This document shows, one piece after another, positions 16,704 through 34,922 of a stretch of DNA of 64,000 bases; the first letter of the stretch is position 1; the number at the start of each line of letters is the position of its first letter. A model generated the notes under the pieces. It saw only the letters and a program-made list of their open reading frames with translations, was not told the DNA's origin and searched no databases. Both the position numbers and the translations under genes were made by a program. Source of the DNA: Candidatus Woesearchaeota archaeon (GTDB lineage Archaea; Nanobdellota; Nanobdellia; Woesearchaeales; JAZDKJ01); NCBI GenBank assembly GCA_043803105.1, contig JAZDKJ010000006.1, positions 208,673 through 272,672 on the forward strand, given 5' to 3'.

Positions 16704-16704
16704 C

Positions 16705-17592: not shown

Positions 17593-17593
17593 T

Positions 17594-18583: not shown

Positions 18584-18687
18584 ACCTGCTTCTACCAGGG
18601 CGTGCTTTATATATTTTATTAAACCACTCGAGAGTAAAGACCTGTTTAACCAAAACAAATAAATAACAAGCAGTAACACCATTTCCT

Positions 18688-21368: not shown

Positions 21369-22397
21369 TTGATGAAGGTTGCCATCTCAATGGAAGAGAA
21401 ACGGCAAAGGGTCAAGGACAGGGCTCTTCTGCTTGTCGATAACTTATCAAGCAGTCTCTATGAGGAGGACATCCATGCTTTGTCCATAAGGTTCTTCTCG
21501 GTGATCCATGAGTTTTTCGCTGATTTTTGCGGTCTGCGCTATCAGTTCACCTATCCAGAGCTCATTTCAGAGATTAGGAAGCGCAACTTATTTGATGATT
21601 TCCTGTCCAAAAAGGTTATTGACTTTATTGCTGTGCTCCAGGAAAAGGAGTATAGTAAGACAGAATTTAATGTCTCTGAATTGAACAGGTGCCTAAAGGG
21701 ATTCAGGCTGATCATAAAGAGTTGTTCTGTCTCGACTACTCACCATGGCATGCACCATAGATTTTATTACCTATTCCAAAGGTTTGGCTTCCTTACAGCC
21801 CACCTTGCCAAGCGTTTTGGCAAGCGCGATGTAGATGATATAGTCTGCCTCATCAACTCTGCAAGGTCAAACCTCGACGAACATAACATCGACCAGGCTC
21901 AGAAAACTTATGAGGATATCATCAAGCTCTACAACAGGTTGTCTGCTGAGGAGAGGAAAAGCGTCTTTCACGGGATTCATTCCCTCTATGCATCAATTGA
22001 GAAGGCTTATACAGAAAGCCTGCTAAAGCAAATTGACAGTCTCTTTGAGGATCTGCATCACCAGCTTGATTCTGGAGACCTCGCCAAGGCCGCTGAAACC
22101 TATTCTTCACTTCAGGCGCGATATGATGAATTGCCTCCTGCGAATAAGAAAAGGCTGTATTCAGAGATTGGACATTGTTACACAGATCTGCAGGCTCTGC
22201 GTGACAAGTCAGCACTCACAGACTTTGACAGGCTTCTCGTAAGGATAAAGGCTGGTGTTACGAGCCAAAAGGTGAGCCTTGCGATGTCTTTGTATAATGA
22301 GGCAGACAACCTATATTCGCAGCTCCCGTTCAGACTGCAGCAAAAGGTCTATACCAATTTGAAGTCCACTTTCAGTCTGCTCTCACGGTTGAGCTGA
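21369..22397 (+). CDS. hypothetical alpha-helical Tyr/Leu-repeat protein, homologous to the cytoplasmic tail of the 723-aa surface protein
   Basis: FTYPELISEIRKRNL...EYSKTEF aligns with FTYEEIAVELRKRRV...EYSNYVV of ORF 27835-30006. Three ~36-aa repeats of the form xxY...LY..L......K.Y..I...Y. Its stop abuts the convergent giant gene. Confidence 0.5.
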   Translation: MMKVAISMEEKRQRVKDRALLLVDNLSSSLYEEDIHALSIRFFSVIHEFFADFCGLRYQFTYPELISEIRKRNLFDDFLSKKVIDFIAVLQEKEYSKTEFNVSELNRCLKGFRLIIKSCSVSTTHHGMHHRFYYLFQRFGFLTAHLAKRFGKRDVDDIVCLINSARSNLDEHNIDQAQKTYEDIIKLYNRLSAEERKSVFHGIHSLYASIEKAYTESLLKQIDSLFEDLHHQLDSGDLAKAAETYSSLQARYDELPPANKKRLYSEIGHCYTDLQALRDKSALTDFDRLLVRIKAGVTSQKVSLAMSLYNEADNLYSQLPFRLQQKVYTNLKSTFSLLSRLS

Positions 22398-25300
22398 CTA
22401 AGGATTGCTGCCCCGGTTCTTGGTTATCACAAAAACTGCATAGCCTATCATCGCCAGGGTTGATGCCAGCACAATACTGAGTTGCATCACGTTCTGTTTG
22501 GCAAAACTTATCAGGGTTGCCAGCGTGCCTTGCTCCATTGGTTGTTCGATCGTTCTCATCTGGCTGGTAATTAAGTACCTGCAAGCGTCGATTGCGTTCT
22601 TCAGCAGCTGCTGCGCTTCTGTGATTAATCCCGATTCTATGTCTGCCCTTGCCTCAGCCAACAGCTCGTTCAGCTCAAGGCATTCTGGGTTCGAAGATAG
22701 AAGGTCCCTGACAAAGCGTACAGAGTCGTTCATTGATTCAAGGAACGGCAATGGGTTTATGGATATAACAGCATTGTCTCTGAAATATGGGTCTTCTGAT
22801 ATCGCGCTTAGGTTTATCTGGTAAGGCTTTTGCTTTGGCTTGCTCGTGGTAATGTTTAGTTCAGTCTCTGTCTTTTCTCCAGGTCTTAGCTGGTTGAACC
22901 TCATTTCCTTGAACGTAAGTGTGACATTGCCTTCAGATGTTTGAGCCATAAGATGTATCTGTTTTAGGGTCACGTTGCCGCTGTTTCTCAATTCAATCGG
23001 TGCGATTATCTCTGTAGGAGAATTGAATTTCAGCGGTTTTGTCAACACAAGTTCAAGCGATATCGGTCTGGTAACATTGACAAGTTCTTTTCTTGGTACG
23101 CTTATGTACTGCGTCGCCCCACCCCCGCTGGAGCTTGCCTGTGGCAGGTATTCCTCAGGTGCCTTCTTTACAGAGACCACTACTGTATTTGACCATGCCG
23201 TCCTGTTTCTGGAGTCAGTGGTCCAGAAGACGAGGCTTGCATCTCCTGTGAAACCTGCCTCCGGGTTAAGGTTGACATACTTTTGGTTGTTAATGCTCAA
23301 CCCAAGATAGTCTGCATTCTGGATGCTCGTGTAGTTGAAGGTCAGTGAGTCATTGTCAGGGTCTTTGAAATAGTCATCCAAATCAATCCAATTCTGTACA
23401 GAGTGGTCTTCCACAACGATAAAGTTTGCTATGGAATAATTCATCTGTAAGCTTTCAATTACAGGTGTAACACCAATGTTGCTTGTGCTCATGTTTATCA
23501 TGAACTGCACGAACCTTGTGTTCCAAGTTGCAGGTGATGCATTCTGTTCGAACTCGTGGCTGAAGTTGATTAAGGTATGTTCGCTGTTTGTGGAAGGCTT
23601 GCCCCACGCGCTCCAGTTTATGCCGTCTGCGCTTGTTCTGGTCCTGATTGTTATGTTTGTCCCGGCAGGCTTTGATTCCATCCAGCTAACAATCGTCAGG
23701 TTGGGCCTTGCCACTGAGGTATAAACACCTGTCTGAGAGTCAACAGCACTTGAGATATAGCTTCCCTTTGTGTAGTAGCTGGTGCTGTTCTGTCTGGACA
23801 AGGTTATGTTTTGCGCTGTGTTGTTGGTTCTGTAGTTTGTGCCTCCTGTTAAACCTATTGTCTTTCTCCCAAAATATGATGGCCTGTCCAAGTTTTTTAC
23901 AGTGACATTCCAGTAGAAGGATGCCTTGTTCCCTAGTTGGTCGCGTACCTCAACTGTGACGTTTCTTGTTCCTGAATCAAACCACCCGATGTTATAGTTC
24001 CAGCTGCTGGCTGTGCCTTGAAGAACCCCGCCAAGTATCCATTTGTAATATTTTGGGTCTCCGTCTGGCTCAATACTGCTCTGGTTGAAAAGGATTGTTC
24101 TGTTCTCTGTAATATTTATCCTTGTTCCTTGGGGGAAAAGGTTGCGGTTTGCAAAGGCAAATACTGTGTAGCTTGATATCGGCCATCCATAAGGATATAT
24201 CATCGTGATGTTTGGCGCGTAGTTTGTTCCGTTGATTCTGAAAATCACCTTTCCGCCGGTCCATAGGCTTCCGTCATTCAAGGATATGTTTACTGTGTGA
24301 TTGCCCACCATCCCGCTGGTTATCGTATAGTTGATTAATCCCATCTGCAGTGAGATGTTCGTAATATTGAACATGGTTGAGTTTGTGTAAAAGAATAGCC
24401 TGTCGCCATCCACGTCTGAGCCGTTCACGTATATCACAGCCCTGTCTCCTACTTTGTACACTTTGTTCGGTATGTTTCTCATGATTGGCGCATCATTGAC
24501 TGAGGTCACTGTCACGGTAATGTTGTTGCTGTACGTTACGTTATGTGTGTCATTGAGGCTGAAGTAGAATACCTCCACCCCATGCCAGTTGGCTGAGGGA
24601 TAGAGGGAAATCTTGCTGTCATCCTCGATATTGACATTTACGTATACATCATCATAGACCTTGTAGCTCAGGTTATCCTTCTGTGAGCCTGAGCATAGGT
24701 GAAAGTCTGGGTCATAGAAATAGTCTGTTAATGTGAAATTGTCAATCAGGTCATGGTCCTCCTCCCACGTGATATTGGGGAAGGATATGTTCAGAAAAGG
24801 CCCCCTGTTGACATTTATTACTGTGACATTCCATGTTAAAACCGTTGTAGCGTTCTGTGAGTCCGTAGCCCAAACTGTCACATTATAGCGTCCTGCCTCA
24901 CAATATCCTGGCCAATACGTCCAATTCCTCTCATACGCTTTGATGGTGTTCATCAGGTAATACTTGAATGTTACAGGCTGGCCTTCCTCATCATACACCT
25001 GTGTGATATTGAAGAGCAATGAGCTTCCTTCAAATACAGAAACATTAGTCTGGTTGGGTTTGTAGCCTAGGATTACAGGAGGATCATTGACGTTCACGAT
25101 GCGGAATACCACCAGCCTGGATACATTGTTGAATCCGTCGCTAAGCGAGATGTTCACTGTGTGGTTTCCAACATCTTTCTGTATGGGTGTAAGGCCTATG
25201 TGATAGCTTGTTGTGTTGACCTTTGTCAAGTTGAACAGCGTATTATTGCTCCACATTGTGAGATTTGCCATTTCCTCGTCATAGCCGCCTATGTATATGC

Positions 25301-27518
25301 TTGCTGTCTGGTCTTCCAGCAGGGTGTAGTTTGTCCGTAGATTTGTAAAATAAGGTAGATCATTGACAATTGTAATGTTTAATGTGAAGATTGTGAGGTT
25401 ATACCCACCATATCCATCAGTGACATTCACCCTGATTGTATGGTTTCCCGCGTCTGCCTGCTGTGGTGTGAAATTAATGAGGCCTGCCGTGCTGTTGAAT
25501 AGGGATATCGAAAAGAAGCTAGCATTTGTCTGGAATATCAATTGGTCATTGTCAGGGTCAAATCCATTCACATAAAAGGTTAGTCTCTGGTCCTCTGCTA
25601 TGGTTTTTGGTCCTATTGGATAGATTAACGGCGCCCGGTTCACGAATATGGTCAAGTGCACGACCTGTGAATCGCTTTTCTGTATTGTGGTATCATCATC
25701 ATGTACGCTGATGTTCACAAACCATTCTCCAACCAGTGATGTGTTTGTGATGTTTAGGTTTGTACTGCTGCTTGCAGGGCTTATCACGTTTGCTGCGTCA
25801 ATGTTAAAGAAAGTGCAGTTATCAGTGAAGGTTAGTATATCATCTTCATCAAGGTCTGTCGCACTAAGATTCAGCAGATACGAGCGGTTTATCCTGAGGT
25901 AGGTGTGTGGGATTGCCGCCAGGATTGGTGGGTTGTTGTAGTCTACTATGCTGAACTTTACCAGGGTGTAGTTGATTGCACCCTTTGAATCAGTGACGGT
26001 TATCCTTACAGTATGGTTTCCAACGTCTTGATTGACTGGTGTGAAGCTGATTTGCCCTGTTGCATTGCCGTCTGCATGCCTTACCGTGACTATGTTGAAG
26101 AATGTTGCATTGTCTGTGAATGTCAGGTTATCCCCGTCCTGGTCTGTTGCATTGATTGTAGTAAAGAAAGGGGTACCTTCCATTGCTGACTGGTTGTTTA
26201 TGTGTTGTATCCATGGTGCTGTGTTGTTTCTTATTGTGAACTTGACTATCTGCGAGTCCCAGAGCTCTGAGTCATTGACTGAGATGTTCACGAAATGGTC
26301 ACCTTGTTGCGAATTGCTGGGAGTAAAGTTGATTAAACCGGATAGTGCGCCAATTGTAAATAACGTGGAGTTGCTGTTAAAGTATAGGTATTCTCCACCA
26401 TCCACGTCTGTTGCGTTTGCCCAGAATTCGTACTTCAGGCCTGCAATCAAGGTTTGGTTGGGGATGAACACGAGCTCAGGCGGGTCATTGACACCAGTCA
26501 CATTAAGCTTTATCGTGTTGCCGAATGCAGCATTGTGGCTGTCATTTGCCTTGAGCGTGATGTACTCAACACCCCAGAAATTTACCTGCGGCAAGAAGCT
26601 CACCTTGGAACTCGTGGCATTGATTGTAACCATTATGTATGTATTGCCACTCACTGTGTAAATTACTGTGTCTTTGTTTGCACCGGTGCAATTTATGTCA
26701 GGGTCAACGAAATAGCTCTGCAGTGTTAGATTGTTTGTTAGATTATGGTCCTCCTGCCAGGTGATGTTGGCAAAGCTTCCATTGAGCACTGGAGGCCTGT
26801 TTGTGTTGTTTACTGTTATAGTCCAATTGTGTGTGTCTGCAGTCTCGTTGAGGTCCCTGACCACAAGCGATACATTGTGTTTTCCTGCTGAACAAAAGTC
26901 CGCATAATATGTCCAGCTTCCGTTTGACATATTGGAGATTTTTTTTGCCGTATTGTCCAGGTACCATGTTGTGTTAAGCCTGTCTCCCCATGGCATGTCC
27001 TTGTCGCTTGTGCTGTAGTTGAACCAGAATCCTACGCTGAGGTTCTCTTGTGTGCTCACATTTTTCTGCACTGGATTCCACCAGGTGATGTTTGGCTTGT
27101 CGTTCAAGTTCTTTACGTAGAAGTACAGCAATACGCCTGAGAATTCTGTTGGTTTTCCTGCGTCCAGCGCGTTCACAATTATGGTCCAGTTCAGTTGGCC
27201 TGTCAAAGGATCTCCCACGTCATTATTTGTGGGAGTGAAGTTCATCAGCGCTGCAGTATTGTTCTTGCTTACCAGGCTGAATGAGCTGAATTTTCCAGGA
27301 GGCAGGTCGTGGGTAAAGTTTATTGGGTACTCCAAGTCTGGGTCTGTTGCTATTATGAAGAACTGGAACCTCTGTCCTTGTGTCAGGTTGAACATGGTGC
27401 CGCTTGCAACATTCTGGAATATCGGGTTTGCTGCATAGACTCCTGTTACGGTTAGGATGAGTGCAACTGCGATCAACACTGTTGACCTTCTCATGTCATC
27501 CTCACTTTTATTGTGCAA
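22398..27518 (-). CDS. giant (1706-aa) cadherin-like-repeat surface protein with signal peptide and C-terminal membrane anchor
   Basis: N-terminal signal peptide. Many roughly 100-aa repeats each ending in a V(N/T)D-x-PP-like motif (VNDPPELVF, VNDAPIMRN, NTNRPPVLNG, VNRAPLIYP). Very dense N-x-S/T sequons. C-terminal TM segment. Confidence 0.75.
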   Translation of the reverse strand: MHNKSEDDMRRSTVLIAVALILTVTGVYAANPIFQNVASGTMFNLTQGQRFQFFIIATDPDLEYPINFTHDLPPGKFSSFSLVSKNNTAALMNFTPTNNDVGDPLTGQLNWTIIVNALDAGKPTEFSGVLLYFYVKNLNDKPNITWWNPVQKNVSTQENLSVGFWFNYSTSDKDMPWGDRLNTTWYLDNTAKKISNMSNGSWTYYADFCSAGKHNVSLVVRDLNETADTHNWTITVNNTNRPPVLNGSFANITWQEDHNLTNNLTLQSYFVDPDINCTGANKDTVIYTVSGNTYIMVTINATSSKVSFLPQVNFWGVEYITLKANDSHNAAFGNTIKLNVTGVNDPPELVFIPNQTLIAGLKYEFWANATDVDGGEYLYFNSNSTLFTIGALSGLINFTPSNSQQGDHFVNISVNDSELWDSQIVKFTIRNNTAPWIQHINNQSAMEGTPFFTTINATDQDGDNLTFTDNATFFNIVTVRHADGNATGQISFTPVNQDVGNHTVRITVTDSKGAINYTLVKFSIVDYNNPPILAAIPHTYLRINRSYLLNLSATDLDEDDILTFTDNCTFFNIDAANVISPASSSTNLNITNTSLVGEWFVNISVHDDDTTIQKSDSQVVHLTIFVNRAPLIYPIGPKTIAEDQRLTFYVNGFDPDNDQLIFQTNASFFSISLFNSTAGLINFTPQQADAGNHTIRVNVTDGYGGYNLTIFTLNITIVNDLPYFTNLRTNYTLLEDQTASIYIGGYDEEMANLTMWSNNTLFNLTKVNTTSYHIGLTPIQKDVGNHTVNISLSDGFNNVSRLVVFRIVNVNDPPVILGYKPNQTNVSVFEGSSLLFNITQVYDEEGQPVTFKYYLMNTIKAYERNWTYWPGYCEAGRYNVTVWATDSQNATTVLTWNVTVINVNRGPFLNISFPNITWEEDHDLIDNFTLTDYFYDPDFHLCSGSQKDNLSYKVYDDVYVNVNIEDDSKISLYPSANWHGVEVFYFSLNDTHNVTYSNNITVTVTSVNDAPIMRNIPNKVYKVGDRAVIYVNGSDVDGDRLFFYTNSTMFNITNISLQMGLINYTITSGMVGNHTVNISLNDGSLWTGGKVIFRINGTNYAPNITMIYPYGWPISSYTVFAFANRNLFPQGTRINITENRTILFNQSSIEPDGDPKYYKWILGGVLQGTASSWNYNIGWFDSGTRNVTVEVRDQLGNKASFYWNVTVKNLDRPSYFGRKTIGLTGGTNYRTNNTAQNITLSRQNSTSYYTKGSYISSAVDSQTGVYTSVARPNLTIVSWMESKPAGTNITIRTRTSADGINWSAWGKPSTNSEHTLINFSHEFEQNASPATWNTRFVQFMINMSTSNIGVTPVIESLQMNYSIANFIVVEDHSVQNWIDLDDYFKDPDNDSLTFNYTSIQNADYLGLSINNQKYVNLNPEAGFTGDASLVFWTTDSRNRTAWSNTVVVSVKKAPEEYLPQASSSGGGATQYISVPRKELVNVTRPISLELVLTKPLKFNSPTEIIAPIELRNSGNVTLKQIHLMAQTSEGNVTLTFKEMRFNQLRPGEKTETELNITTSKPKQKPYQINLSAISEDPYFRDNAVISINPLPFLESMNDSVRFVRDLLSSNPECLELNELLAEARADIESGLITEAQQLLKNAIDACRYLITSQMRTIEQPMEQGTLATLISFAKQNVMQLSIVLASTLAMIGYAVFVITKNRGSNP

Positions 27519-27838
27519 TTGTTTTGCTTATTGTCCACAGTATATTGCACCTCAACAGTGTTCTGCCCAACTTGTACATCTTGCCATGTGCATCTTATTC
27601 CTTCTTGTATTGCTGAGCAAATGTTTGTGTCTGCTTTGGTTGGATAGCCTTCAATCGTTGCCACTATGTTCTGCCCTTTGCTTAAAATGATTTCATCATT
27701 GCACCTGATGTGGTGGATTTCTTCTTGCGACATTACCAAGTAGCTGGTTAATGACTGAGTGTCGAGCATCAGGCTTATAGCTGCTAATATGGTGGTTATT
27801 AGCACCAGGAGCCCCATTTGCTGTTTCCACTGCCTCAT
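27491..27838 (-). CDS. small secreted or membrane-anchored Cys-containing protein
   Basis: Signal-anchor GLLVLITTILAAI, four Cys, and a position between the two large surface genes with short overlaps on both sides. Confidence 0.4.
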   Translation of the reverse strand: MRQWKQQMGLLVLITTILAAISLMLDTQSLTSYLVMSQEEIHHIRCNDEIILSKGQNIVATIEGYPTKADTNICSAIQEGIRCTWQDVQVGQNTVEVQYTVDNKQNNCTIKVRMT

Positions 27839-30006
27839 TTCTTCTCCTTTGTTGATTTATGTAGTTCGTCGTACAGCCTTCGTACTGCTGCAAAGTATTG
27901 TCTCTGGTCTTGCTCGCTCAAGACCTTGTAAAGTTTCATCACTTGCTTGTACCCTCGAACCGCTGCCTGTTGGTCATTCTTGTGCATTGCCTCAAATACA
28001 TTGTATATCAACTCAAACATCTGCCTGGATTTTCCTTCTATTTTCCATGAGGTTTTGTTTTGTATAATACGCATGTCTGTGCTCTGCTTGATTATTCTGC
28101 GAAGTTCTTCTATCAAGTTTGCTAGCTCCTCGCTTGACACTACATAATTGCTGTACTCTATCTCTTTGATTCTTCGCAGCAATGATTCCGCTATTCCTTG
28201 CAACTTTGGATCAACCCTCCTTTTCCTAAGTTCTACAGCTATCTCCTCGTAGGTAAATTCATAATCCAGTCTAAGCATTGCCTTGAAGAATTGCTTGGTT
28301 GCGCTGCCAAGCTCCTTGATGCCTTCCTTTGGATGTCTTACATCAATCGAGTCCAGTTGTGCCAAGACCTCCTCATAAGTTGTCGTCTCTGTTCTGAAGG
28401 TCAATTTCATCAGCTGTGCAAGGTTCTGGCTCGTTCTGTGTTTTTCTAGTACCTTGGTTACATATGGTTTGCTAATCATGATACCAACTAGGATTGCCAT
28501 TGTAAGGAGGCTAATCAAAATAATTGACCATCCTGTGAAAGCCTCCTGCAAAGTCTCTATTGATATCGGCTGCTCTGTAGCTATTACCGCCTCTCCCGCC
28601 CCGCCAGGTTGCGCTAGGCATGGTTCGCAAGGTCCTCCGCAATCTATGCCTGCCTCTTCCTGGTTCTTTACCCTGTCATAGCATGTGGCGCATGGCTGGC
28701 ATGGTCCGCCGCAATCAACACCCTCCTCATTCCGGTTCCACACTCCGTCAATGCATTGGGGTATGCCCTTGCATGGCTGGCTTATGCTCGGCCTCTTCTT
28801 TATGGTGTTGCAATTGTTTAGGTCTATGCAGTTCCTGTACATTGTGCCGTTTTCAAGGCAGCCATCCCACCTCTGGCAGAACCACTCTTCAACGCACTTA
28901 ATGCTTCCACCACCTCCGCCTCCGCCTCCGCCTGCAGCTGCCGGTACTATAGGTGGTGGTGTAGTGACGCGGAGTGAAACATTGTTGCTTCTGTTGCTTG
29001 CACCCCAATTGTCTGTTACAGTGAAGTACACCAATTCATTGCCAATCCATCCTTGCGGCTGTGAGAAAACCACAAAATTGTTGCTCGTTGGGTAAATGTC
29101 TGCTTTTATTACGTGCAGCGGATTGAGATATACAACATTGAAGTATAGGTGGTCGTCCCTGTCAGGGTCAAACACAAAATCATTCAGGTAGAATGCCGCC
29201 CTTATCTGATTTACAAACCAGGTCTGTGGCTCTAGGTTCCTGATAAACCTTGGTGGCCTGTTGACATTGGTTATGTTCACTGTCCAGTTTAGCATTCTCG
29301 TGTTGTTGAATTGGTCTGACAGCATGATTGACACATTGAAAATGCCTACCGAAGTGAAGTTGGTGTTAAGTGCATACCTGCTGCTTCCAGTTGCATTGGC
29401 TGTGCTGTTTCTTGTCTGCCCGTTGACTCTCCATTGTAGGCTGACTGTCTCATTTAGGGTTTCAAAGAATGAGACCTTGAACCGCAAGGTCTTGTTCTCG
29501 CTTATGTTGACTTTCGGGAATTTGCTGTATACTGATTGATTTGGGTAATAACCTGTTATGTTTGGTGGTAGGTTTTTTATTATCGTGATGTTCAGGCTTT
29601 TGGTTGTTAGCCTGTTTGAGCAAATTGAACTGTCATCTGCTGTTATGTTGACCGTTTGCCTTCCTGTATTGGCATTGCTGGCTGTAAAGTAGATTACTCC
29701 GGTAATTGGGTCTATGTCAAACATGGTACTGTCATCAAAATAGGTGATTGTGTCGTTGTGCGGGTCAGTTGCATTGGCTCTGCAAAAATAATAGTAGAAA
29801 GCTGTGAAGTTCTTTGGGCAATTGATATTGAGTTGCGGCGGTACATTGATGCACAGGTTCAACAGTGCTTCTGAAAAGTCGCTTGCTTTGCCTGTTAGCC
29901 GTGTTGGTGCACTGGCTTCTTGGTAGATTCTCACGTTTATGTAAAAGCCTATGATTACGAAAACAACCGCCACTGCGGCTATTGTGTTGTTTGAGATCCT
30001 AATCAT
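27835..30006 (-). CDS. 723-aa single-pass surface protein with a cadherin-like repeat ectodomain, poly-Gly linker, Cys-rich module, TM helix and cytoplasmic Tyr/Leu-repeat domain
   Basis: Signal peptide, VNRPP motif, a G9 linker, two GxDCGGPC(Q/E)PC repeats, the TM helix WSIILISLLTMAILVGIMI, and a C-terminal domain homologous to ORF 21369-22397. Confidence 0.7.
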   Translation of the reverse strand: MIRISNNTIAAVAVVFVIIGFYINVRIYQEASAPTRLTGKASDFSEALLNLCINVPPQLNINCPKNFTAFYYYFCRANATDPHNDTITYFDDSTMFDIDPITGVIYFTASNANTGRQTVNITADDSSICSNRLTTKSLNITIIKNLPPNITGYYPNQSVYSKFPKVNISENKTLRFKVSFFETLNETVSLQWRVNGQTRNSTANATGSSRYALNTNFTSVGIFNVSIMLSDQFNNTRMLNWTVNITNVNRPPRFIRNLEPQTWFVNQIRAAFYLNDFVFDPDRDDHLYFNVVYLNPLHVIKADIYPTSNNFVVFSQPQGWIGNELVYFTVTDNWGASNRSNNVSLRVTTPPPIVPAAAGGGGGGGGGSIKCVEEWFCQRWDGCLENGTMYRNCIDLNNCNTIKKRPSISQPCKGIPQCIDGVWNRNEEGVDCGGPCQPCATCYDRVKNQEEAGIDCGGPCEPCLAQPGGAGEAVIATEQPISIETLQEAFTGWSIILISLLTMAILVGIMISKPYVTKVLEKHRTSQNLAQLMKLTFRTETTTYEEVLAQLDSIDVRHPKEGIKELGSATKQFFKAMLRLDYEFTYEEIAVELRKRRVDPKLQGIAESLLRRIKEIEYSNYVVSSEELANLIEELRRIIKQSTDMRIIQNKTSWKIEGKSRQMFELIYNVFEAMHKNDQQAAVRGYKQVMKLYKVLSEQDQRQYFAAVRRLYDELHKSTKEKK

Positions 30007-30154
30007 TGTCCTTCTTTTCTTTGTACTTGAGCAACATGTGCCTGATTCCCTCTCGTGTTATCTCTGCTTGGTTGCTGAACAGTCCCTTATCTATCAGCTC
30101 CTGCATCTGCCTCTTCATTTCTTTTCCGACACGTATATGGATTAGCGTTGCCAT
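29999..30154 (-). CDS. ribbon-helix-helix (CopG/Arc-like) DNA-binding protein, 51 aa
   Basis: MATLIHIRVGKEMKRQMQELIDKGLFSNQAEITREGIRHMLL. Start taken at the internal ATG at 30154. Overlaps the start of the 723-aa gene by 8 nt. Confidence 0.55.
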   Translation of the reverse strand: MATLIHIRVGKEMKRQMQELIDKGLFSNQAEITREGIRHMLLKYKEKKDND

Positions 30155-30322
30155 TTTGCTATTTATAAGTATCAGAAATATAACTAATTGATATATATAA
30201 ATATTTGTATATAAGTAGATAGAATAAAACAGATATATCGAAATGATACACTTAAGATACACTTTATTATAGGGCAGTCAAAATAATCTACAAAAGGCTT
30301 AAAAACCTAGAAACCGCAATCT
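30155..30322. promoter_or_regulatory. AT-rich promoter region with several TATA-like boxes heading the RHH and surface-protein operon
   Basis: ATATATAAATATTTGTATATAAG-type elements upstream of the minus-strand RHH gene. Confidence 0.3.
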
Positions 30323-30739
30323 CTACCAGGCTCTTGTTATGACTATTCTCAGCTTGCCGTAATATGTGCCGTTCACAGTGTTTTCAGGCACAATTCCTGA
30401 TGATTGCACCTGTTCTTGCGTGCCCTTGTCCAGTCTAAAGCTTGTATTGGAGAACCTGACAAACCTTGCCACATCTCCAGAGATTTGGACGGTAACTTGA
30501 ACCGGCATGTTATAGATGTTTCTAACAGTGAAAGCCCGATGTCCTGTTCCGCCCGGAGGTACTGCTCCGTAGGTAAGGTTGATAGGGTTTACATCAATGC
30601 CCACAAAGTCTGCCACCACGAGCTTCACATGGGTTTCCTTTACATCAACTACATAATAGAATGAGTATAAGATTGATGTTGCAGTTATGGAAATCAGCAG
30701 CGCCACAAAAAGCAGAATCAGCGTTTGCTTAAGGTTCAT
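30323..30739 (-). CDS. secreted or membrane-anchored hypothetical protein (138 aa)
   Basis: N-terminal TM/signal LILLFVALLISITATSILY. Last gene of the minus-strand secreted-protein operon. Confidence 0.45.
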   Translation of the reverse strand: MNLKQTLILLFVALLISITATSILYSFYYVVDVKETHVKLVVADFVGIDVNPINLTYGAVPPGGTGHRAFTVRNIYNMPVQVTVQISGDVARFVRFSNTSFRLDKGTQEQVQSSGIVPENTVNGTYYGKLRIVITRAW

Positions 30740-31859
30740 TTTTCCTCCTGCCTCTCATCAGGAGCAGCATAAGCCCTGCCACAATTATCAAGAGAGCAAT
30801 CAATCCTAAACCCCCAAATACTATCATTGGTTGTTCAGTCAGTTTCTTCTTGGCAGGAGTGGTAATCTCAACAATTCCTTGGTAACTGTTTGTGCCACCG
30901 TCATACTTCAAAATGATGGTTGACTGGTACATACCGGGCTTCATGTTTTTTGTGTCAAAATATGTCTTCATGGTTTTTGTTTCCCATGGTTCAAGGTCGG
31001 TTGATGGTGTTTGGAATGTTGTGTTGCCAACGCTCACAATAGCATATTGATTTGTTATCCTCGAATTCCACAGGCTTTGCACTATTACCTCAAATGGGCT
31101 GATGGTTTCAAATCCTGCTGTCCTTGTGTAGTTTATCAAACCTACTGAGAGGGATCCTATCTTGAATTGCCTGCTCATATAAGAGGTATTTGTCCTGTAA
31201 TGGAATGCTGCCTTTGCCAGGTACTCGCCTCCCTTGTAGCCTTTGCTTGCCCATTTCACAGCATACGATTGTCTTTCCACTCTTGAAGCCAGTGGTTTTG
31301 TATCAGTTTTTAGTTCTGCAATTGTCTGGCCTGCCATATCTACAATCTGAACATCACCCCAAGACGCAGTAATATTTTCATAACCATAGTTTGATGCATA
31401 TATCGTCACTGGCAGAGTCTCATTCTCGTTGATGTTCGGGACTGCAAAATCTGTCAAGACAAAAACCCCCGGAAAAGGGACAACTATGACAATGAATGCC
31501 ACTACAGTGGTTGCGGTACCTATCATGTCACCGCCTTGCGGAACCTCAGCAGCGCTGACTTCGATTATGTTCTTGCCAGGTGTTTTTATGAACTCAGGCA
31601 GTTTGAGATGTATCGTTACAGCCTGTCCCTTGAGGTTTTGCGCCGAGAATTCTTCTGTTTTCAATAAGCTTGCGTATTGTGCCAGCCCTCCACCCAAGTT
31701 GACTCTGATTTGTGCAGCATCCCCTACCAGGAAGGTCACATCCTGTTCCAGGTTGGGTTGGAAATCAATATAGGTTTTTGCTGGAGAAATGAACGTTCCT
31801 TGTACTGCTTGCACTGAAATAAAGATAAAAAATAAGAAAAAAAGGTTATGCCTCCTCAT
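30729..31859 (-). CDS. secreted hypothetical protein with C-terminal TM anchor (376 aa)
   Basis: Signal peptide FFLFFIFISVQAVQG and C-terminal GLGLIALLIIVAGLMLLLMRGRRKNEP. Confidence 0.55.
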   Translation of the reverse strand: MRRHNLFFLFFIFISVQAVQGTFISPAKTYIDFQPNLEQDVTFLVGDAAQIRVNLGGGLAQYASLLKTEEFSAQNLKGQAVTIHLKLPEFIKTPGKNIIEVSAAEVPQGGDMIGTATTVVAFIVIVVPFPGVFVLTDFAVPNINENETLPVTIYASNYGYENITASWGDVQIVDMAGQTIAELKTDTKPLASRVERQSYAVKWASKGYKGGEYLAKAAFHYRTNTSYMSRQFKIGSLSVGLINYTRTAGFETISPFEVIVQSLWNSRITNQYAIVSVGNTTFQTPSTDLEPWETKTMKTYFDTKNMKPGMYQSTIILKYDGGTNSYQGIVEITTPAKKKLTEQPMIVFGGLGLIALLIIVAGLMLLLMRGRRKNEP

Positions 31860-31868
31860 AATGCTTCC

Positions 31869-32525
31869 TTAAATTTTTGGTTTACCTGTCGCTATAACTG
31901 TATTGCGTTTTAATCCTAGGGGGGCTGTGCCGTCAAAACTGACTTGAACATGCAGGCTAATTGTGTTTGCCGAGACACCATAGTAGAATCTGTCGCAGGT
32001 TATATTGCTCCATCCCTCATGCGTAACCTCAACCCAGTCATTCACGAATTTTGACATATTGGTTGACAAGACGCACCCTGCTGTGGCTGTCGAACCTGTC
32101 CTTGTGCCGTTAAGCATCTTAAAAAACAAATGGGCATTTGTCCCTCCAACAAATGCTGAGCTGTTCTTGAAAGTGATGTTTAGTGAGCAGTTGTTGTTTC
32201 CGATATTCCTTAACTCCAATGCCTCAGTACAAGCCTGAAAGGTTGTAGAGCATCCACTTGTATTGATATATCCGCTCGTGTTCAGTTTGCAGGTCCTCGT
32301 TGCGTATCCGGTTCCCCAGTTGCACCTTGCCTGGCTAAAGTTAATCCAGTTTACGTCGCTTATTGTAAGACTAATGTTGCCTACTGTTTTGTTGGCTGAA
32401 GCGAATCCTGCTGCCCCCGGTTTAATCCCTGATAGTTTGTTCAGGCTTATAAGTGACCCTCCTATTGATACCACTATAGCTGATATAAGAAGTATTGTTA
32501 GTGTCTTGTTGGATATTTCTTGCAT
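31869..32525 (-). CDS. secreted Cys-containing paralog P1 (218 aa)
   Basis: N-terminal signal anchor, conserved ARCNWG.GYA...CKLNTS.YIN.SGCS...NIGNNNCSLNITFKN...ATGKPKI. Many N-sequons. Confidence 0.55.
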   Translation of the reverse strand: MQEISNKTLTILLISAIVVSIGGSLISLNKLSGIKPGAAGFASANKTVGNISLTISDVNWINFSQARCNWGTGYATRTCKLNTSGYINTSGCSTTFQACTEALELRNIGNNNCSLNITFKNSSAFVGGTNAHLFFKMLNGTRTGSTATAGCVLSTNMSKFVNDWVEVTHEGWSNITCDRFYYGVSANTISLHVQVSFDGTAPLGLKRNTVIATGKPKI

Positions 32526-32536
32526 TTTTTTCCTCC

Positions 32537-32770
32537 TTATGGCTTTCGTATCTCTAGGTTGATTTCTGCTTGTGTTGTTGGTTGCGGTTGTATGTTCAGT
32601 TGTATTTCTGCGTTTGCCGTCGGTATATCTGTTGGTTGTTTGTTTGTTGTTTGTTGGCCTGGTGCTTTCGGTATATTAACACTAGTTATAAAAGCCCACG
32701 TGCTTATTACAGAGCTCATAATGACTAGCACCAACAGAATTAGTACAGTGTTTTTTGATATGTCTGTCAT
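32537..32770 (-). CDS. small single-TM protein S1 (77 aa), cassette partner of P1
   Basis: MTDISKNTVLILLVLVIM...WAFIT...PTTQAEINLEIRKP. Start set at the conserved MTD.SKN. Confidence 0.45.
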   Translation of the reverse strand: MTDISKNTVLILLVLVIMSSVISTWAFITSVNIPKAPGQQTTNKQPTDIPTANAEIQLNIQPQPTTQAEINLEIRKP

Positions 32771-32830
32771 CCTCTTTGAACCTCCTTGAGTGCGATTCTT
32801 CCTGCCGAATAGTCGCATTAGTTGCTTGTC

Positions 32831-33487
32831 TTACACCTTTGGTTTTCCTGTTGCTATTATAGTATTGGTTCTCACTCCTGTCCTTGCCGCTGCGTCAAAT
32901 TCTACTTGGACTTGGAGGGTTATTGTGTTTTGGTTTACTCCGAAGTAGAATTTGTCGCATGTGATGTTGCTGTATGCTTCTTTTGTTACTTTTACCCAGT
33001 CTGCTGATACGAATCTTGAGAAGTTTGTTGAAAGGGTGCATCCAGGTCTTATGTTTGTTGCTCCGGTCCCGTTTTGCAGTTTATAAAATAGTTTAGTGTT
33101 TGCTCCTCCTATAAATTCTGAATTGTTTTTGAATGTGATGTTTAGTGAGCAGTTGTTGTTTCCGATGTTCTTAATCTGCAGCGGTAAGCAGTTTACTGTG
33201 CTGAAGCCTGGCGAGCATCCGCTTGCGTTTATGTATGGGCTTGTGTTCAGTTTGCACATTGTTGTTGCGTAGCCTGATCCCCAGTTGCACCGTGCTTGTG
33301 AGAAGTTTATCCAGTTAATGTCGCTTATCGTGAGTGTCACATTGCCCCTTGTTATATTTGCCGTGGCAAAGCCCGCAATGTTTTGCACTGCCGCAAGCCT
33401 GTTTAGGCTAATAAGCGATCCTCCTAAGGTAATTATGATAGCGGCAATTAGCAATATAGCCAATGTTCTGTTAGATATTTCTTCCAT
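32831..33487 (-). CDS. secreted Cys-containing paralog P2 (218 aa)
   Basis: Same family as P1 and P3, with stretches of near-identical nucleotide sequence. Confidence 0.55.
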   Translation of the reverse strand: MEEISNRTLAILLIAAIIITLGGSLISLNRLAAVQNIAGFATANITRGNVTLTISDINWINFSQARCNWGSGYATTMCKLNTSPYINASGCSPGFSTVNCLPLQIKNIGNNNCSLNITFKNNSEFIGGANTKLFYKLQNGTGATNIRPGCTLSTNFSRFVSADWVKVTKEAYSNITCDKFYFGVNQNTITLQVQVEFDAAARTGVRTNTIIATGKPKV

Positions 33488-33501
33488 TGTGTTTTCCTCC
33501 T

Positions 33502-33744
33502 TTATGGTTTTTTTATTTCTAGGTTGATTTCCGCCTGTGTCGTTGGTGGCGGTTGTACAGGTTGTATAAACAGTTCTATCTGACCGTCTACTGCTGGCGG
33601 CATGTTTATCTGTTGTTTGATTGGTGTTTGCGCCTGTCTTTGCAGAGTGTTCACATTGGTGATGAACGCCCAGGTACCAATAACAGAGGTCAGGATAATC
33701 ATTACTAATAGAACCAATATGATATTCTTGGACACGTCCGTCAT
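33502..33744 (-). CDS. small single-TM protein S2 (80 aa), cassette partner of P2
   Basis: MTDVSKNIILVLLVMIIL...WAFITNVN...PPTTQAEINLEIKKP. Confidence 0.45.
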   Translation of the reverse strand: MTDVSKNIILVLLVMIILTSVIGTWAFITNVNTLQRQAQTPIKQQINMPPAVDGQIELFIQPVQPPPTTQAEINLEIKKP

Positions 33745-33848
33745 TAGATCCTTTTTTAAACTATGTTTGTTGAATCCTAAATATGGTTTTTGATACTGCA
33801 CATATTTAAGCTTTTCTGTGACCTGAAACACAGGTTGCCTGACTTTGT

Positions 33849-34514
33849 CTATATTTTTGGTTTTCCTGTTGCTATTATTTTGTTGATTCTAAATCCTGTG
33901 GTTGCTGCTGCGTCAAATTCTACTTGGACTTGGAGGGTTATTGTGTTTTGGTTTACTCCGTAGTAGAATTTGTCGCATGTGATGTTGCTGTAATATGTTT
34001 TTGTTACTTTTACCCAGTTTGCTGTTACGAATCTTGAGAAGTTTGTTGATAGGGTGCATCCGGGTAGTGTGTTTGTTGTTCCGGTCCCGTTTTGTAGTTT
34101 GTATGATATTTTTGCGTTTGCTCCTCCTATGAATGCTGAGCTGTTTTTGAATGTGATGTTTAGTGAGCAGTTGTTGTTTCCGATGTTTTTTATTTGTAGT
34201 GGTGCGCAGTTTGTTGTTGTGAAGCCTGATGAGCATCCGCTTGCGTTTATGTATGGGCTGGTGTTCAGTTTGCAGGTCTTTCTTGCGTAGCCTGATCCCC
34301 AGCTGCATCTTGATTGTGAGAAGTTGATCCAGTTAATGTCGTTGATTGTAAATGAGACGTTGCCTCCGGTTTCGTTTGTTACTGCATAGCCTATTATGGC
34401 TAAGTGGCCTTCGCCAGTGATTCGGTTTATGCTCAGTAATGTGCCCATTACAGTCACAAAGAGCGCAACCACTGCAATGGATGCCAGAACTTTGTTGGAC
34501 ACGTTATTATACAT
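33849..34514 (-). CDS. secreted Cys-containing paralog P3 (221 aa)
   Basis: Same family. First gene of the operon, with an AT-rich promoter at 34515-34650. Confidence 0.55.
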   Translation of the reverse strand: MYNNVSNKVLASIAVVALFVTVMGTLLSINRITGEGHLAIIGYAVTNETGGNVSFTINDINWINFSQSRCSWGSGYARKTCKLNTSPYINASGCSSGFTTTNCAPLQIKNIGNNNCSLNITFKNSSAFIGGANAKISYKLQNGTGTTNTLPGCTLSTNFSRFVTANWVKVTKTYYSNITCDKFYYGVNQNTITLQVQVEFDAAATTGFRINKIIATGKPKI

Positions 34515-34658
34515 ATAATGGACCCTGTATACCCAATCTTGACATCCTCGGGAGTCTCTTTATATAAATTTTTCTACCTGCGTGTAACAATCAACCTCCA
34601 CGAACAGCCTGAAACAGTCTCGCAAACATTTATTAAATAACGCTTCTTAGTCCTTTCC

Positions 34659-34922
34659 GTGGCCACTCGAGTCAATCGCAAAAACCCTCATTATGTCTTG
34701 TTCACTTATTCGATTGATAAACTAAGGCAGAAGGATAAGGTGTTGTTTTACTATGCGCTTAAGGGCCGCAAAGGTCATTCTGGAATATTGGCAGATGATA
34801 CAATAGTCCAGCTCGGGAGGACTGTAGTACTTGTGCCGAAAAGCAAAGAACTGAAGTTTTCAAGATTCTTGAGGCAATGGAAATGTCTTTTTGACAAGCG
34901 CTACCTTGTTTTGGAGAAATAG
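34659..34922 (+). CDS. hypothetical protein (87 aa)
   Basis: ORF with a KGRKGHSG motif and no recognised family. Confidence 0.35.
   Translation: MATRVNRKNPHYVLFTYSIDKLRQKDKVLFYYALKGRKGHSGILADDTIVQLGRTVVLVPKSKELKFSRFLRQWKCLFDKRYLVLEK

What the first reader, a model, noticed from the sequence alone, without database searches (positions are those of the whole stretch)
30323..34650. Triplicated cassette of secreted Cys-rich paralogs, each paired with a small single-TM partner
Three about 220-aa secreted paralogs (conserved ARCNWG.GYA..CKLNTS.YIN.SGC...NIGNNNCSLNITFKN...ATGKPK[IV]) alternate with two about 78-aa single-TM proteins (MTD[IV]SKN...WAFIT...PTTQAEINLEI[RK]KP). The period is about 1 kb, with long stretches of identical DNA, so the amplification is recent or being homogenised. 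Two more secreted proteins (376 aa with a C-terminal anchor, 138 aa) follow in the same operon. The operon ends at the promoter of the cadherin-like operon. No family is recognisable; candidates are pilus or fibre subunits, lectin-like proteins, or variable surface antigens.
Basis: seen in the sequence. Interest (0 to 1): 0.6.

Follow-up and report, generated by a model that had tools for sequence, protein, structure and literature searches.

The report
DPANN archaeal surface-fibre subunit gene cassette
Three diverged copies of a secreted, sugar-coated protein, alternating with tiny membrane-anchored partner proteins, belong to a conserved and uncharacterised gene cluster of DPANN archaea (very small, probably host-dependent cells) that most likely builds a cell-surface fibre or adhesion complex.

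Summary
Three paralogs (221, 218 and 218 aa; 57-72% identical) alternate with two ~78-aa single-TM proteins on the minus strand, with a 962-1018 nt period. A 376-aa and a 138-aa protein follow. The claim of long identical DNA is wrong: the longest exact match is 54 nt and dS is 0.5-2.5. The triplication is therefore lineage-specific but old, not recent and not an assembly artefact.

The window comes from a Candidatus Woesearchaeota genome assembled from a metagenome. The paralogs belong to an unannotated family (about 1,770 clusters at 50% identity, no Pfam model) found in Woese-, Pace-, Nano- and Parvarchaeota.

The gene order is conserved in about 50 loci: small protein, then 1-4 paralogs, then p376, then p138, then large adhesins. 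The "cadherin operon" therefore belongs to the same system.

- **Paralog fold:** the AlphaFold model shows an N-terminal helix plus a beta-sandwich. Its best solved-structure matches, all marginal, are archaeal cannula and thread subunits and FimA, which are strand-donation fibre subunits.
- **Small partner:** it is only a TM helix, a linker and a copy of the paralog's first beta-strand.
- **Signal peptidase:** five related loci embed an archaeal-type signal peptidase I.

Best reading (about 0.45): a new, DPANN-specific fibre or surface complex assembled by strand complementation. The mechanism is inferred, not shown.

The parts
33849..34514 (-). Paralog A (221 aa). It is the first gene of the unit and has a divergent N-terminal TM segment. 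It is a member of the uncharacterised DPANN 'para' family.
   Evidence: ORF; 72% identical to B; para HMM E 1.9e-51; NCBI hypothetical V1837_03140
33502..33744 (-). Small partner 1 (80 aa from MTDVSKN). It consists of a TM helix, a linker and two amphipathic beta-strand motifs (GQIELFIQ, AEINLEIK). A 14-nt gap separates it from paralog B.
   Evidence: it aligns to positions 1-~60 of the para HMM; family alignment
32831..33487 (-). Paralog B (218 aa). The structure was predicted for this copy: helix 5-33, unstructured 34-59, beta-sandwich 60-216.
32537..32770 (-). Small partner 2 (77 aa from MTDISKN). An 11-nt gap separates it from paralog C.
31869..32525 (-). Paralog C (218 aa), the most diverged copy (dS 1.7-2.5 against A and B).
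30729..31859 (-). p376. It has a signal peptide, three beta-rich domains, a C-terminal TM helix and a basic tail. It is conserved immediately downstream of the last paralog, and its middle domain is remotely like WxLIP_HBD/DUF3324.
   Evidence: p376 lies downstream in 41 of 45 loci; 22 of 57 family members hit PF11797, best E 9.5e-6
30323..30739 (-). p138. It has an N-terminal TM anchor and one Ig-like domain of the ASH/MSP/PapD-like type. It overlaps the p376 stop by 11 nt.
   Evidence: profile against PDB sequences: FAP65 2e-9, Hydin 2e-8
34559..34568 (-). TATA-like box (TTTATATAAA), preceded by a purine-rich BRE-like run. It lies about 45-55 nt upstream of the paralog A ATG and is the candidate promoter of the paralog unit.
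   Evidence: read from the sequence; inference only
29999..30154 (-). 51-aa ribbon-helix-helix-like protein. Its stop overlaps the p723 start by 8 nt. An AT-rich gap with TATA-like boxes precedes it, a candidate internal promoter. It is conserved in L001.
   Evidence: (RHH_8 E 0.11, weak)
27835..30006 (-). p723. In order, it has an N-terminal TM, an LTGKAS motif, an amphipathic strand, cadherin/Big-like domains, Cys-rich GxDCGGPC repeats, a second TM and a cytoplasmic helical domain. It is a conserved locus member.
27491..27838 (-). 115-aa ORF with an N-terminal TM, overlapping both neighbouring genes. It is specific to this window and has no counterpart in L001, L004 or L005.
22398..27518 (-). 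1706-aa adhesin-like protein with Big_9, Cadherin_4/5 and PKD domains and a C-terminal TM. Its signal peptide ends ...LTVTG|VYAAN. It is the last gene of the conserved locus.
21369..22397 (+). 342-aa soluble protein homologous to the cytoplasmic domain of p723. It is convergent with the giant gene and sits at the same position in five other loci.
34659..34922 (+). 87-aa protein, divergently transcribed. It is homologous to the C-terminal half of a ~185-aa locus-associated protein that lies between p138 and p723 in 13 loci.

Best explanation
The cassette is a lineage-specific, old expansion of the subunit genes of a conserved, uncharacterised cell-surface locus of DPANN archaea. In this window the locus spans about 21369-34922.

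Proposed mechanism (inferred, not shown):
1. Each paralog is exported with a highly conserved N-terminal signal-anchor helix.
2. A signal peptidase I cuts at the near-invariant x-[I/L]-T-G | [F/Y]-A site.
3. This releases a heavily N-glycosylated, disulfide-bonded beta-sandwich that is preceded by a short amphipathic strand, beta0 (consensus G-N-V-x-L-x-I).
4. Subunits join by beta-strand complementation: beta0 of one subunit inserts into the sandwich of the next. The result is a fibre or an extended surface complex.
5. The small partner has only a TM helix, a linker and a beta0-like strand, and lacks the TG site. It stays in the membrane and donates its strand to a terminal subunit, as an anchor, cap or nucleator in the way TapA acts for TasA.
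6. p376 (signal peptide, Ig-like domains, C-terminal TM) and p138 (a membrane-tethered PapD/ASH-like domain) act as base or assembly factors.
7. The large cadherin/PKD/LamG proteins carry the same N-terminal module and are the adhesive parts.
8. Three diverged shaft paralogs would give alternative or mixed fibres.
For: Shown here:
- **Synteny.** The order small, 1-4 paralogs, p376, p138, p723-like, giant adhesin recurs in about 50 loci from Woese-, Pace-, Nano- and Parvarchaeota.
- **Small partner.** It aligns to para HMM positions 1-~60. Its strand consensus G-N-[VI]-x-L-x-[IV]-E matches para beta0, G-[TN]-[VAI]-x-L-x-[IV]. In most pairs beta0 is the best-matching 9-mer of the paralog.
- **Duplication unit.** [small+para] cassettes have duplicated independently in L019, L020 and L048.
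- **Structure.** The AlphaFold2 model from 119 sequences has pLDDT 83.9. It shows helix 5-33, an unstructured 34-59 and an 8-strand sandwich.
- **Fold matches.** The top Foldseek PDB hits are the cannula subunit CanX 9h8b (prob 0.98), thread subunit 0406 7pnb (prob 0.89), and FimA/FimI/FimG/CsuE. All are donor-strand fibre subunits.
- **TG site.** G39 of the TG site is at least 90% conserved, and -3 is L, I or V. The same TG motif followed by a strand starts the p723-like, BIG and giant proteins.
- **Signal peptidase.** An archaeal-type signal peptidase I (TIGR02228, E 1e-13 to 1e-16; also matches the SipW model) is embedded in the locus in 5 loci.
- **Large proteins.** Proteins of up to 2637 aa end in a para-like domain in at least 14 loci, in the manner of a tip adhesin with a pilin domain.
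- **Extracellular features.** The family has a median of 4.3 N-glycosylation sequons per 100 aa and 4 conserved Cys.

From the literature:
- TasA, AbpA, thread, cannula and Tafi fibres assemble by N-terminal strand donation after Sec or Tat export.
- Their loci often hold paralogous pilins, a ~400-aa multi-domain partner (AbpB), tip and anchor proteins, and a signal peptidase (PMC12518558, PMC9245690, PMC12337348).
- TapA nucleates TasA by donating its N-terminal strand (PMC10151520).
Against: - Fold matches are marginal: E 7e-3 to 1e-1 and TM-score 0.29-0.44.
- There is no sequence-level link to the TasA superfamily. No PF12389 match appears among the families reported for 150 members, hhalign against TasA gives probability 0.4%, and the profile finds no fibre subunit among PDB sequences.
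- Strand exchange itself was not tested. No multimer prediction was available and the model coordinates could not be inspected.
- In the shallow-alignment model beta0 folds back in cis.
- The N-terminal helix is the most conserved part of the protein, which is unusual for a cleaved signal peptide.
- The distance from the hydrophobic core to the TG site (about 12 residues) is long for a signal peptidase I site.
- No signal peptidase gene lies in this 64-kb window.
- Small-partner and beta0 strands show no locus-specific co-variation: 1940 of 5000 permutations reach the observed score.
- No small partner was detected in 11 of 43 loci.
Confidence: 0.45

Rival explanations
1. Non-filamentous cell-surface complex. 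The N-terminal helices are retained as membrane anchors. The paralogs, p376, p138 and the giant adhesins form a membrane-bound glycoprotein coat or adhesion platform, comparable to the WxL/Csc 'cell-surface complexes' of Gram-positive bacteria. The small partner is a TM subunit of that complex.
For: - The N-terminal helix is nearly identical among proteins that are only about 36% identical elsewhere.
- p376 has the WxLIP architecture: signal peptide, Ig-like domains and a C-terminal TM. 22 of 57 members weakly hit WxLIP_HBD, and 5 of 38 p138 members hit WxLIP_PGBD.
- The locus has the WxL logic of small and large proteins sharing one C-terminal domain, plus a membrane-anchored partner.
- Every component has a TM segment.
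Against: - No WxL-domain match appears among the families reported for 150 members.
- The near-invariant TG site and the locus-embedded signal peptidase I argue for cleavage.
- A partner that consists only of a TM helix and a beta0 copy is hard to explain without strand pairing.
- The best fold matches are fibre subunits.
Confidence: 0.28
2. Type IV pilin-like proteins. The conserved N-terminal helix is a class III signal and filament-core helix. The paralogs are major pilins and the small partners are headless minor pilins, both assembled by a type IV filament ATPase and platform encoded elsewhere in the genome.
For: - The architecture is helix plus beta-sandwich.
- The N-terminus is more conserved than the head domain.
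- Several proteins of the locus share the N-terminal module.
- A few members carry K/R-G leaders such as MAKRKQG|ISNN.
- The small partners weakly resemble Pilin_N (E 0.24-0.44).
Against: - The FlaFind-type class III motif is present in only 16 of 261 members, and most leaders are just M, MD or MEE.
- No pilin Pfam model matches at significance.
- No ATPase, platform protein or prepilin peptidase appears among the recurrent neighbour families in 50 loci, whereas a signal peptidase I does.
- No archaeal pilin or archaellin is among the top 50 fold matches.
Confidence: 0.12
3. Variable surface-antigen array. The tandem copies serve antigenic or host-range variation through gene conversion or differential expression, whatever structure they build.
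For: - Cassette expansions have arisen independently in several lineages.
- A/B are mosaic: about 50% identical in the 5' part and 83-92% in the 3' part, which suggests partial conversion.
- Glycosylation sequons are dense.
Against: - dN/dS of 0.10-0.35 indicates purifying selection.
- No invertible or repeat elements flank the copies.
- 40 of 50 loci have a single copy.
- All copies lie in one apparent operon.
Confidence: 0.1
4. Assembly artefact or very recent amplification of one gene.
For: The 1-kb periodicity in a metagenome-assembled genome.
Against: - The copies differ at 28-43% of residues, with dS 0.5-2.5 and a longest identical run of 54 nt. Assemblers do not create such divergent repeats.
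- Tandem copies recur in independent assemblies.
Confidence: 0.02

Closest known systems
TasA-superfamily strand-donation fibres and their loci (B. subtilis tapA-sipW-tasA; archaeal bundling pili AbpA/AbpB; Sulfolobus thread 0406; Pyrodictium cannulae CanA/CanX)
   Same: - A ~200-aa secreted beta-sandwich subunit with an N-terminal amphipathic strand after the signal sequence.
- The best (marginal) fold matches are CanX and 0406.
- The subunit gene is followed by a ~400-aa protein with a signal peptide and three beta-domains, as AbpB follows AbpA.
- Paralogous subunits occur in one locus.
- A SipW/archaeal-type signal peptidase I is embedded in 5 related loci.
- An accessory protein whose relevant part is a donated strand, as in TapA.
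   Different: - No detectable sequence or profile similarity.
- The signal-anchor helix is exceptionally conserved and long.
- The accessory protein is a 60-85-aa TM-anchored strand with no folded domain.
- Additional conserved partners are present: the PapD/ASH-like p138 and a two-TM p723 with a cytoplasmic domain.
- The distribution is DPANN-restricted.
- Strand donation is not demonstrated.
WxL / Csc cell-surface gene clusters of Gram-positive bacteria (small WxL, large WxL, WxLIP = DUF916-DUF3324-TM)
   Same: - The cluster logic is the same: a small protein that is essentially one domain, large proteins carrying that domain at their C-terminus behind adhesive domains, and a ~340-400-aa protein with a signal peptide, Ig-like domains and a C-terminal TM.
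- The p376 family hits WxLIP_HBD more often than any other Pfam family (22 of 57).
- Strand insertion of the partner into the small protein has been predicted for WxL.
   Different: - No WxL domain or WxL motifs.
- DUF916 is not detected in p376.
- Archaea lack the peptidoglycan that WxL binds.
- The window's own locus lacks the large protein ending in a para-like domain.
- The Pfam hits are below the curated cut-offs.
Haloarchaeal Tat-dependent fimbriae (Tafi: TafA/TafE pilins, TafC tip, TafF membrane anchor)
   Same: - An archaeal strand-donation pilus locus with duplicated pilin paralogs plus proposed tip and membrane-anchor proteins.
- This is the same division of labour as proposed here.
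   Different: - Export is by Tat rather than Sec.
- No sequence relationship was found.
- Tafi subunits are not among the top fold matches.
Chaperone-usher pili (FimA/FimH/FimC) and archaeal type IV pilins
   Same: - Fim/Csu subunits recur among the fold matches.
- p138 belongs to the ASH/MSP/PapD-like Ig superfamily.
- The tip-adhesin-with-pilin-domain logic is shared.
- The helix-plus-sandwich layout resembles archaeal type IV pilins.
   Different: - There is no usher and no outer membrane.
- p138 has one domain where PapD has two.
- There is no class III signal motif (16 of 261) and no linked ATPase or platform protein.

Membership tests
TasA superfamily (TasA/AbpA/thread/CanX strand-donation subunits) | Sequence or profile similarity to Peptidase_M73 (PF12389) or to solved members | tested here: not met
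   - No PF12389 match among the 25 families reported for 150 members at E<=0.1.
- hhalign of profile A5 against TasA: probability 0.4%.
- Profiles A3 and A4 against PDB sequences give no fibre subunit.
TasA superfamily (TasA/AbpA/thread/CanX strand-donation subunits) | Jelly-roll / beta-sandwich fold similar to members | tested here: inconclusive
   - The AlphaFold2 model has pLDDT 83.9.
- Foldseek top hits are 9h8b CanX (E 6.9e-3, prob 0.98) and 7pnb 0406 (E 8.1e-3, prob 0.89), but TM-scores are only 0.29-0.43.
TasA superfamily (TasA/AbpA/thread/CanX strand-donation subunits) | N-terminal Sec signal peptide cleaved by signal peptidase I, often with a dedicated peptidase gene nearby | tested here: inconclusive
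   - A near-invariant x-[ILV]-T-G site lies about 12 residues after the hydrophobic core.
- A TIGR02228-type peptidase lies in 5 of 50 loci, but none lies in this window.
- No TIGR04088 signal-peptide match.
TasA superfamily (TasA/AbpA/thread/CanX strand-donation subunits) | N-terminal strand inserted into the neighbouring subunit | not testable with these tools
   - An amphipathic beta0 is present and is left unstructured in the deep-alignment model.
- No multimer prediction, model coordinates or experiment were available.
Archaeal type IV pilins | Class III signal motif [KRDE][GA][ALIFQMVED][ILMVTAS]x3 at the start of the hydrophobic helix | tested here: not met
   16 of 261 family members carry it, and the three window copies do not.
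Archaeal type IV pilins | Match to pilin models (Pilin_N and others) | tested here: not met
   - Small partners: E 0.24-0.44, 12-13 bits against a cut-off of 25.2.
- The paralogs give no match.
Archaeal type IV pilins | Linked assembly ATPase, platform protein and prepilin peptidase | tested here: not met
   - None appears among the recurrent neighbour families of 50 loci.
- None was found among the window ORFs scanned.
- Genes elsewhere in the genome could not be examined.
WxL / Csc cluster (WxLIP and WxL proteins) | WxLIP: signal peptide + DUF916 + DUF3324 + C-terminal TM | tested here: inconclusive
   - p376 has a signal peptide and a C-terminal TM.
- PF11797 is hit by 22 of 57 members (best E 9.5e-6; window copy E 0.089, 13.2 bits against a cut-off of 28.9).
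- PF06030 is not among the families reported for p376 and is hit weakly by 5 of 38 p138 members.
- A profile search found no bridging bacterial homologs.
WxL / Csc cluster (WxLIP and WxL proteins) | WxL domain with two Trp-x-Leu motifs in the small and large proteins | tested here: not met
   - No WxL Pfam match among the 25 families reported for 150 members.
- No conserved W-x-L columns in alignments A4 and A5.
Chaperone-usher pili | Two-domain PapD chaperone and an outer-membrane usher | tested here: not met
   - p138 has a single ASH/PapD-like domain on a TM anchor.
- No usher-like protein is present in the locus.

The most novel reading that the evidence does not exclude
The locus encodes a fourth major class of archaeal strand-donation surface fibre, restricted to DPANN archaea.
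- A membrane-anchored 'donor-strand-only' mini-protein would tether or nucleate the fibre.
- A membrane-tethered PapD-like protein would assist assembly.
- Giant cadherin/LamG adhesins would plug into the same strand-and-groove code.
This would make it the long-sought host-attachment organelle of Woese- and Pacearchaeota. Cassette copy number would set fibre composition.
Probability: 0.25. Interest if true: 0.85.

Novelty: new variant of a known kind. Interest (0 to 1): 0.62.

Why it matters
DPANN archaea are abundant, mostly uncultured and thought to live attached to other cells. How Woese- and Pacearchaeota attach is unknown.

This locus is conserved across those lineages and often occurs in more than one copy per genome. 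It has no annotation in any curated library. Its core family alone comprises about 1,770 clusters at 50% identity.

If it builds a strand-complemented fibre, three things follow:
- This assembly principle would extend beyond Thermoproteota and haloarchaea to DPANN.
- A minimal membrane anchor made of only a TM helix and a donor strand would be added to the known repertoire.
- There would be concrete targets (paralog, small partner, p376) for structural work and for detecting attachment structures in metagenomes and tomograms.

If it is instead a membrane-bound complex, it would be an archaeal analogue of the poorly understood WxL/Csc clusters.

Tried and rejected
- **Curated libraries.** Pfam and NCBIfam scans of all locus proteins gave nothing significant for the paralogs or small partners.
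- **First structure model.** The model from 17 sequences (pLDDT 62.9) was too weak. Its FimA hits were kept only as a lead.
- **Profile against TasA.** It aligned only the signal peptide and first strand, so it was not used as evidence.
- **Bridging homologs for p376.** The profile search for bacterial WxLIP homologs returned only 13 DPANN proteins.
- **Co-variation test.** Locus-specific co-variation between small-partner strands and paralog beta0 was negative, with 1940 of 5000 permutations reaching the observed score. The first attempt was also one residue out of register.
- **Close relatives.** The metagenome scan for relatives to compare copy number found only one 1.1-kb contig.
- **Alignment too diverse.** Alignment A4 was too diverse for locus retrieval.
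- **RNA families.** The Rfam scan of the window was empty.
- **Literature.** Five searches found no description of this family or locus.
- **Recent amplification or artefact.** Rejected on divergence.

Full report
**What is there.** On the minus strand of 30323-34514 lie, in transcription order:
- paralog A (33849-34514, 221 aa)
- small protein 1 (33502-33744)
- paralog B (32831-33487, 218 aa)
- small protein 2 (32537-32770)
- paralog C (31869-32525, 218 aa)
- a 376-aa protein with a signal peptide and a C-terminal TM (30729-31859)
- a 138-aa protein with an N-terminal TM (30323-30739)

A/B are 72% identical, A/C 57% and B/C about 65%. The direct repeats have a 962-1018 nt period. Each small gene ends 11-14 nt before the next paralog, so the repeated unit is [small+paralog]. 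Paralog A has no small gene upstream. A TATA-like box lies about 50 nt upstream of A.

**What is not there.** The 'long stretches of identical DNA' do not exist.
- The longest exact matches are 54 nt (A/B) and 32 nt (A/C, B/C).
- dS is 0.53, 1.7 and 2.5, and is saturated for the two small genes. dN/dS is 0.10-0.35.
- A/B are mosaic: about 50% identical in the first 135 nt and 83-92% afterwards. This allows some past conversion.
- In a neighbour-joining tree the three copies group together, with a metagenomic protein (P0004) as sister.

The triplication is therefore lineage-specific, old and under purifying selection. It is far too diverged to be an assembly artefact.

**Origin and family.** The three paralogs are NCBI hypothetical proteins V1837_03120, V1837_03130 and V1837_03140, on a 542,637-bp contig of a Candidatus Woesearchaeota genome assembled from a metagenome.
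- A word-indexed search found only 17 relatives.
- A profile search of 1.84 billion cluster representatives found 1,770 clusters at E<=1e-3 and 1,235 at E<=1e-10. All are about 190-260 aa and match over their full length.
- None carries a name or a Pfam domain.
- Genome hits come from Woese-, Pace-, Nano- and Parvarchaeota. A few contigs are labelled Methanosarcinales or Patescibacteria, which I suspect are mis-binned.

**Family hallmarks.**
- An N-terminus M-x-[DE]-[IV]-S-N-[KR]-T-L-A-x-L-L-x-x-A-I-x-x-S-L-G-G-T that is almost invariant even between proteins about 36% identical elsewhere.
- A near-invariant Gly in an x-[I/L/V]-T-G-[F/Y]-A motif about 12 residues after the hydrophobic core.
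- An amphipathic strand G-N-V-x-L-x-I, called beta0 here.
- The motifs FGxG and L-E-N-x-G-N-x-N-V-x-L-N.
- Four conserved Cys and a median of 4.3 N-glycosylation sequons per 100 residues.

**The locus.** Contigs encoding distant homologs show the same gene order. I built HMMs for each component and searched six-frame ORFs of 50 loci.
- The order is small protein (60-85 aa), then 1-4 paralogs, then p376, then p138, then a 660-1000-aa p723-like protein, then a 1,350-1,700-aa adhesin.
- p376 lies downstream in 41 of 45 loci with enough sequence. A small partner was detected in 32 of 43.
- Paralog copy number per locus is 1 in 40 loci, 2 in 6, 3 in 3 and 4 in 1. Whole [small+paralog] cassettes are duplicated in L019, L020 and L048.
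- The window's 'cadherin operon' is part of the same conserved system. It comprises RHH 29999-30154, p723 27835-30006, a 115-aa ORF, and the 1706-aa Big_9/Cadherin/PKD protein 22398-27518.
- Two further genes also belong to it: a convergent 342-aa paralog of the p723 cytoplasmic domain and a divergent 87-aa gene.
- In this window the RHH gene overlaps the p723 start. It follows a 168-nt AT-rich gap with TATA-like boxes. Two transcription units within one functional locus is plausible.

**The components.**
- **Small partner.** It aligns to positions 1-~60 of the paralog HMM, which cover the TM helix, the linker and beta0. Across 41 homologs the only constant features are the TM helix and one strand G-N-[VI]-x-L-x-[IV]-E. 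Woesearchaeota-type members add a second strand at the C-terminus. The strand consensus is the same as paralog beta0, and beta0 is usually the best-matching 9-mer in the adjacent paralog. Locus-specific co-variation was not detected.
- **p376.** 22 of 57 members weakly match WxLIP_HBD/DUF3324 (best E 9.5e-6), more than match any other Pfam family.
- **p138.** It is a TM-anchored ASH/MSP/PapD-like Ig domain. The family profile matches FAP65 at 2e-9 and Hydin at 2e-8 among PDB sequences, and Pfam gives ASH, Cep192 and PG_0320-like_C.
- **Large upstream proteins.** In at least 14 loci, proteins of up to 2,637 aa (LamG_3 in L040) end in a paralog-like domain.
- **Shared N-terminal module.** The p723-like, BIG and giant proteins begin with a TM segment, then x-[IL]-T-G, then an amphipathic strand. 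All exported parts therefore share one N-terminal module.
- **Signal peptidase.** Five loci embed an archaeal/SipW-type signal peptidase I with the SM-P, GD, HRV and GDNN boxes (TIGR02228, E 1e-13 to 1e-16). None lies in this window.

**Structure.** With 17 sequences the model was poor: pLDDT 62.9, with FimA as the top Foldseek hit. With 119 sequences it reached pLDDT 83.9 and pTM 0.69. That model shows helix 5-33, no secondary structure for 34-59 (which includes beta0), and an eight-strand sandwich over 60-216.

Against the PDB, the best Foldseek hits are:
- the Pyrodictium cannula subunit 9h8b (E 6.9e-3, prob 0.98)
- the Sulfolobus thread subunit 7pnb (E 8.1e-3, prob 0.89)
- then FimA, FimI, FimG and CsuE

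All are donor-strand-complemented fibre subunits. The E-values and TM-scores (0.29-0.44) are marginal, and more sensitive libraries were unavailable. No sequence-level link to TasA exists.

**Interpretation.** Published strand-donation fibres share a set of features:
- The subunits are ~200-aa sandwiches exported with a cleaved signal.
- They are joined through an N-terminal strand.
- Their loci hold paralogous pilins, a ~400-aa multi-domain partner, tip and anchor proteins, and often a signal peptidase.
- TapA nucleates TasA by donating only its N-terminal strand.

The DPANN locus fits this logic part for part. It adds a distinctive element: a protein that is nothing but a membrane anchor plus a donor-like strand.

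I therefore propose export, cleavage at TG, strand-mediated polymerisation, anchoring or nucleation by the small partner, and adhesion through the giant proteins. The synteny, the homology of the small partner to the paralog N-terminus, and the predicted fold are shown here. Cleavage, strand exchange and fibre formation are inferred.

**Rivals.**
- **Membrane-bound, WxL/Csc-like surface complex (0.28).** This stays serious because the N-terminal helix is more conserved than a disposable signal peptide should be, and because p376 resembles WxLIP.
- **Type IV pilin (0.12).** It is weakened by the absence of class III motifs (16 of 261), of pilin model matches and of linked ATPase or platform genes.
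- **Antigenic variation.** It is compatible with the other readings but not indicated by dN/dS.

**Verdict.** This is a real tandem array of three old paralogs. It sits inside a widespread, unannotated DPANN surface locus whose closest analogues are strand-donation fibre loci and WxL clusters. It fails the sequence-based membership tests for both, so I file it as a new variant of a known kind rather than as a member. The mechanism is plausible and testable, but unproven.

Noticed in passing
window 15756-18682 (-): A trio of a MoxR-type AAA_3 ATPase, a DUF58-like protein and a vWA/TM protein. The same trio directly follows the giant adhesin gene in L020, L026 and L035. It may be a loosely linked accessory module of the surface locus.
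   Followed up: partly
window 21369-22397 (+): A 342-aa soluble protein homologous to the cytoplasmic C-terminal domain of p723 (BLASTP 2e-7). It is convergent with the giant gene. A homolog sits at the same position in L006, L011, L013, L016 and L017.
   Followed up: partly
window 34659-34922 (+): An 87-aa protein equal to the C-terminal half of a ~185-aa nucleotidyltransferase-like protein (43% identity, 4e-14). That protein lies between p138 and p723 in 13 loci. Here it is divergently transcribed upstream of paralog A and may be a regulator.
   Followed up: partly
It overlaps the p723 start codon by 8 nt and is conserved in L001.
   Followed up: partly
window 27491-27838 (-): A 115-aa ORF with an N-terminal TM, wedged between p723 and the 1706-aa gene and overlapping both. 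It has no counterpart in the closest syntenic loci.
   Followed up: no
window 47843-53322 (+): A second run of large secreted-looking proteins (667, 483, 330 and 344 aa) with only fn3 and CarboxypepD_reg-like matches. It may be another surface-protein operon.
   Followed up: no
L008 10882-12204; L040 2755-7911; L035 3-7916: Paralog-like domains occur in other contexts. One is a 440-aa paralog split by an inserted domain whose sequence motif looks LamG-like by eye (not scanned). Others are proteins of up to 2,637 aa (LamG_3 in L040) that begin with a cytoplasmic KYGPYYYE motif, a TM segment and LTG, and end in a paralog-like domain.
   Followed up: partly
L021 3962-4534, L026 6829-7338, L036 13702-14205, L044 9159-9614, L049 4140-4685: Short (150-190 aa) archaeal-type signal peptidase I genes lie inside the surface locus. 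Pfam missed them, but TIGR02228 and SipW models hit them.
   Followed up: yes
L008, L011-L013, L017, L019, L030, L042 (labelled Methanosarcinales); L026 (labelled Patescibacteria): These loci carry the full DPANN-type cluster but bear non-DPANN organism labels. The cause is probably mis-binning or mislabelling, but a wider distribution is not excluded.
   Followed up: no
window 34966-36615 (+): By reading the translations only, without a scan, the genes upstream of the locus look like archaeal phospholipid-synthesis genes: phosphatidylserine decarboxylase-like, CDP-alcohol phosphatidyltransferase-like and CDP-archaeol synthase-like. This is consistent with an archaeal origin.
   Followed up: no
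L004 and L005 (same genome assembly); also L007/L009, L023/L031, L028/L033: Several genomes carry two separate copies of the locus or of the paralog on different contigs. Expansion therefore also occurs at the level of the whole locus.
   Followed up: no
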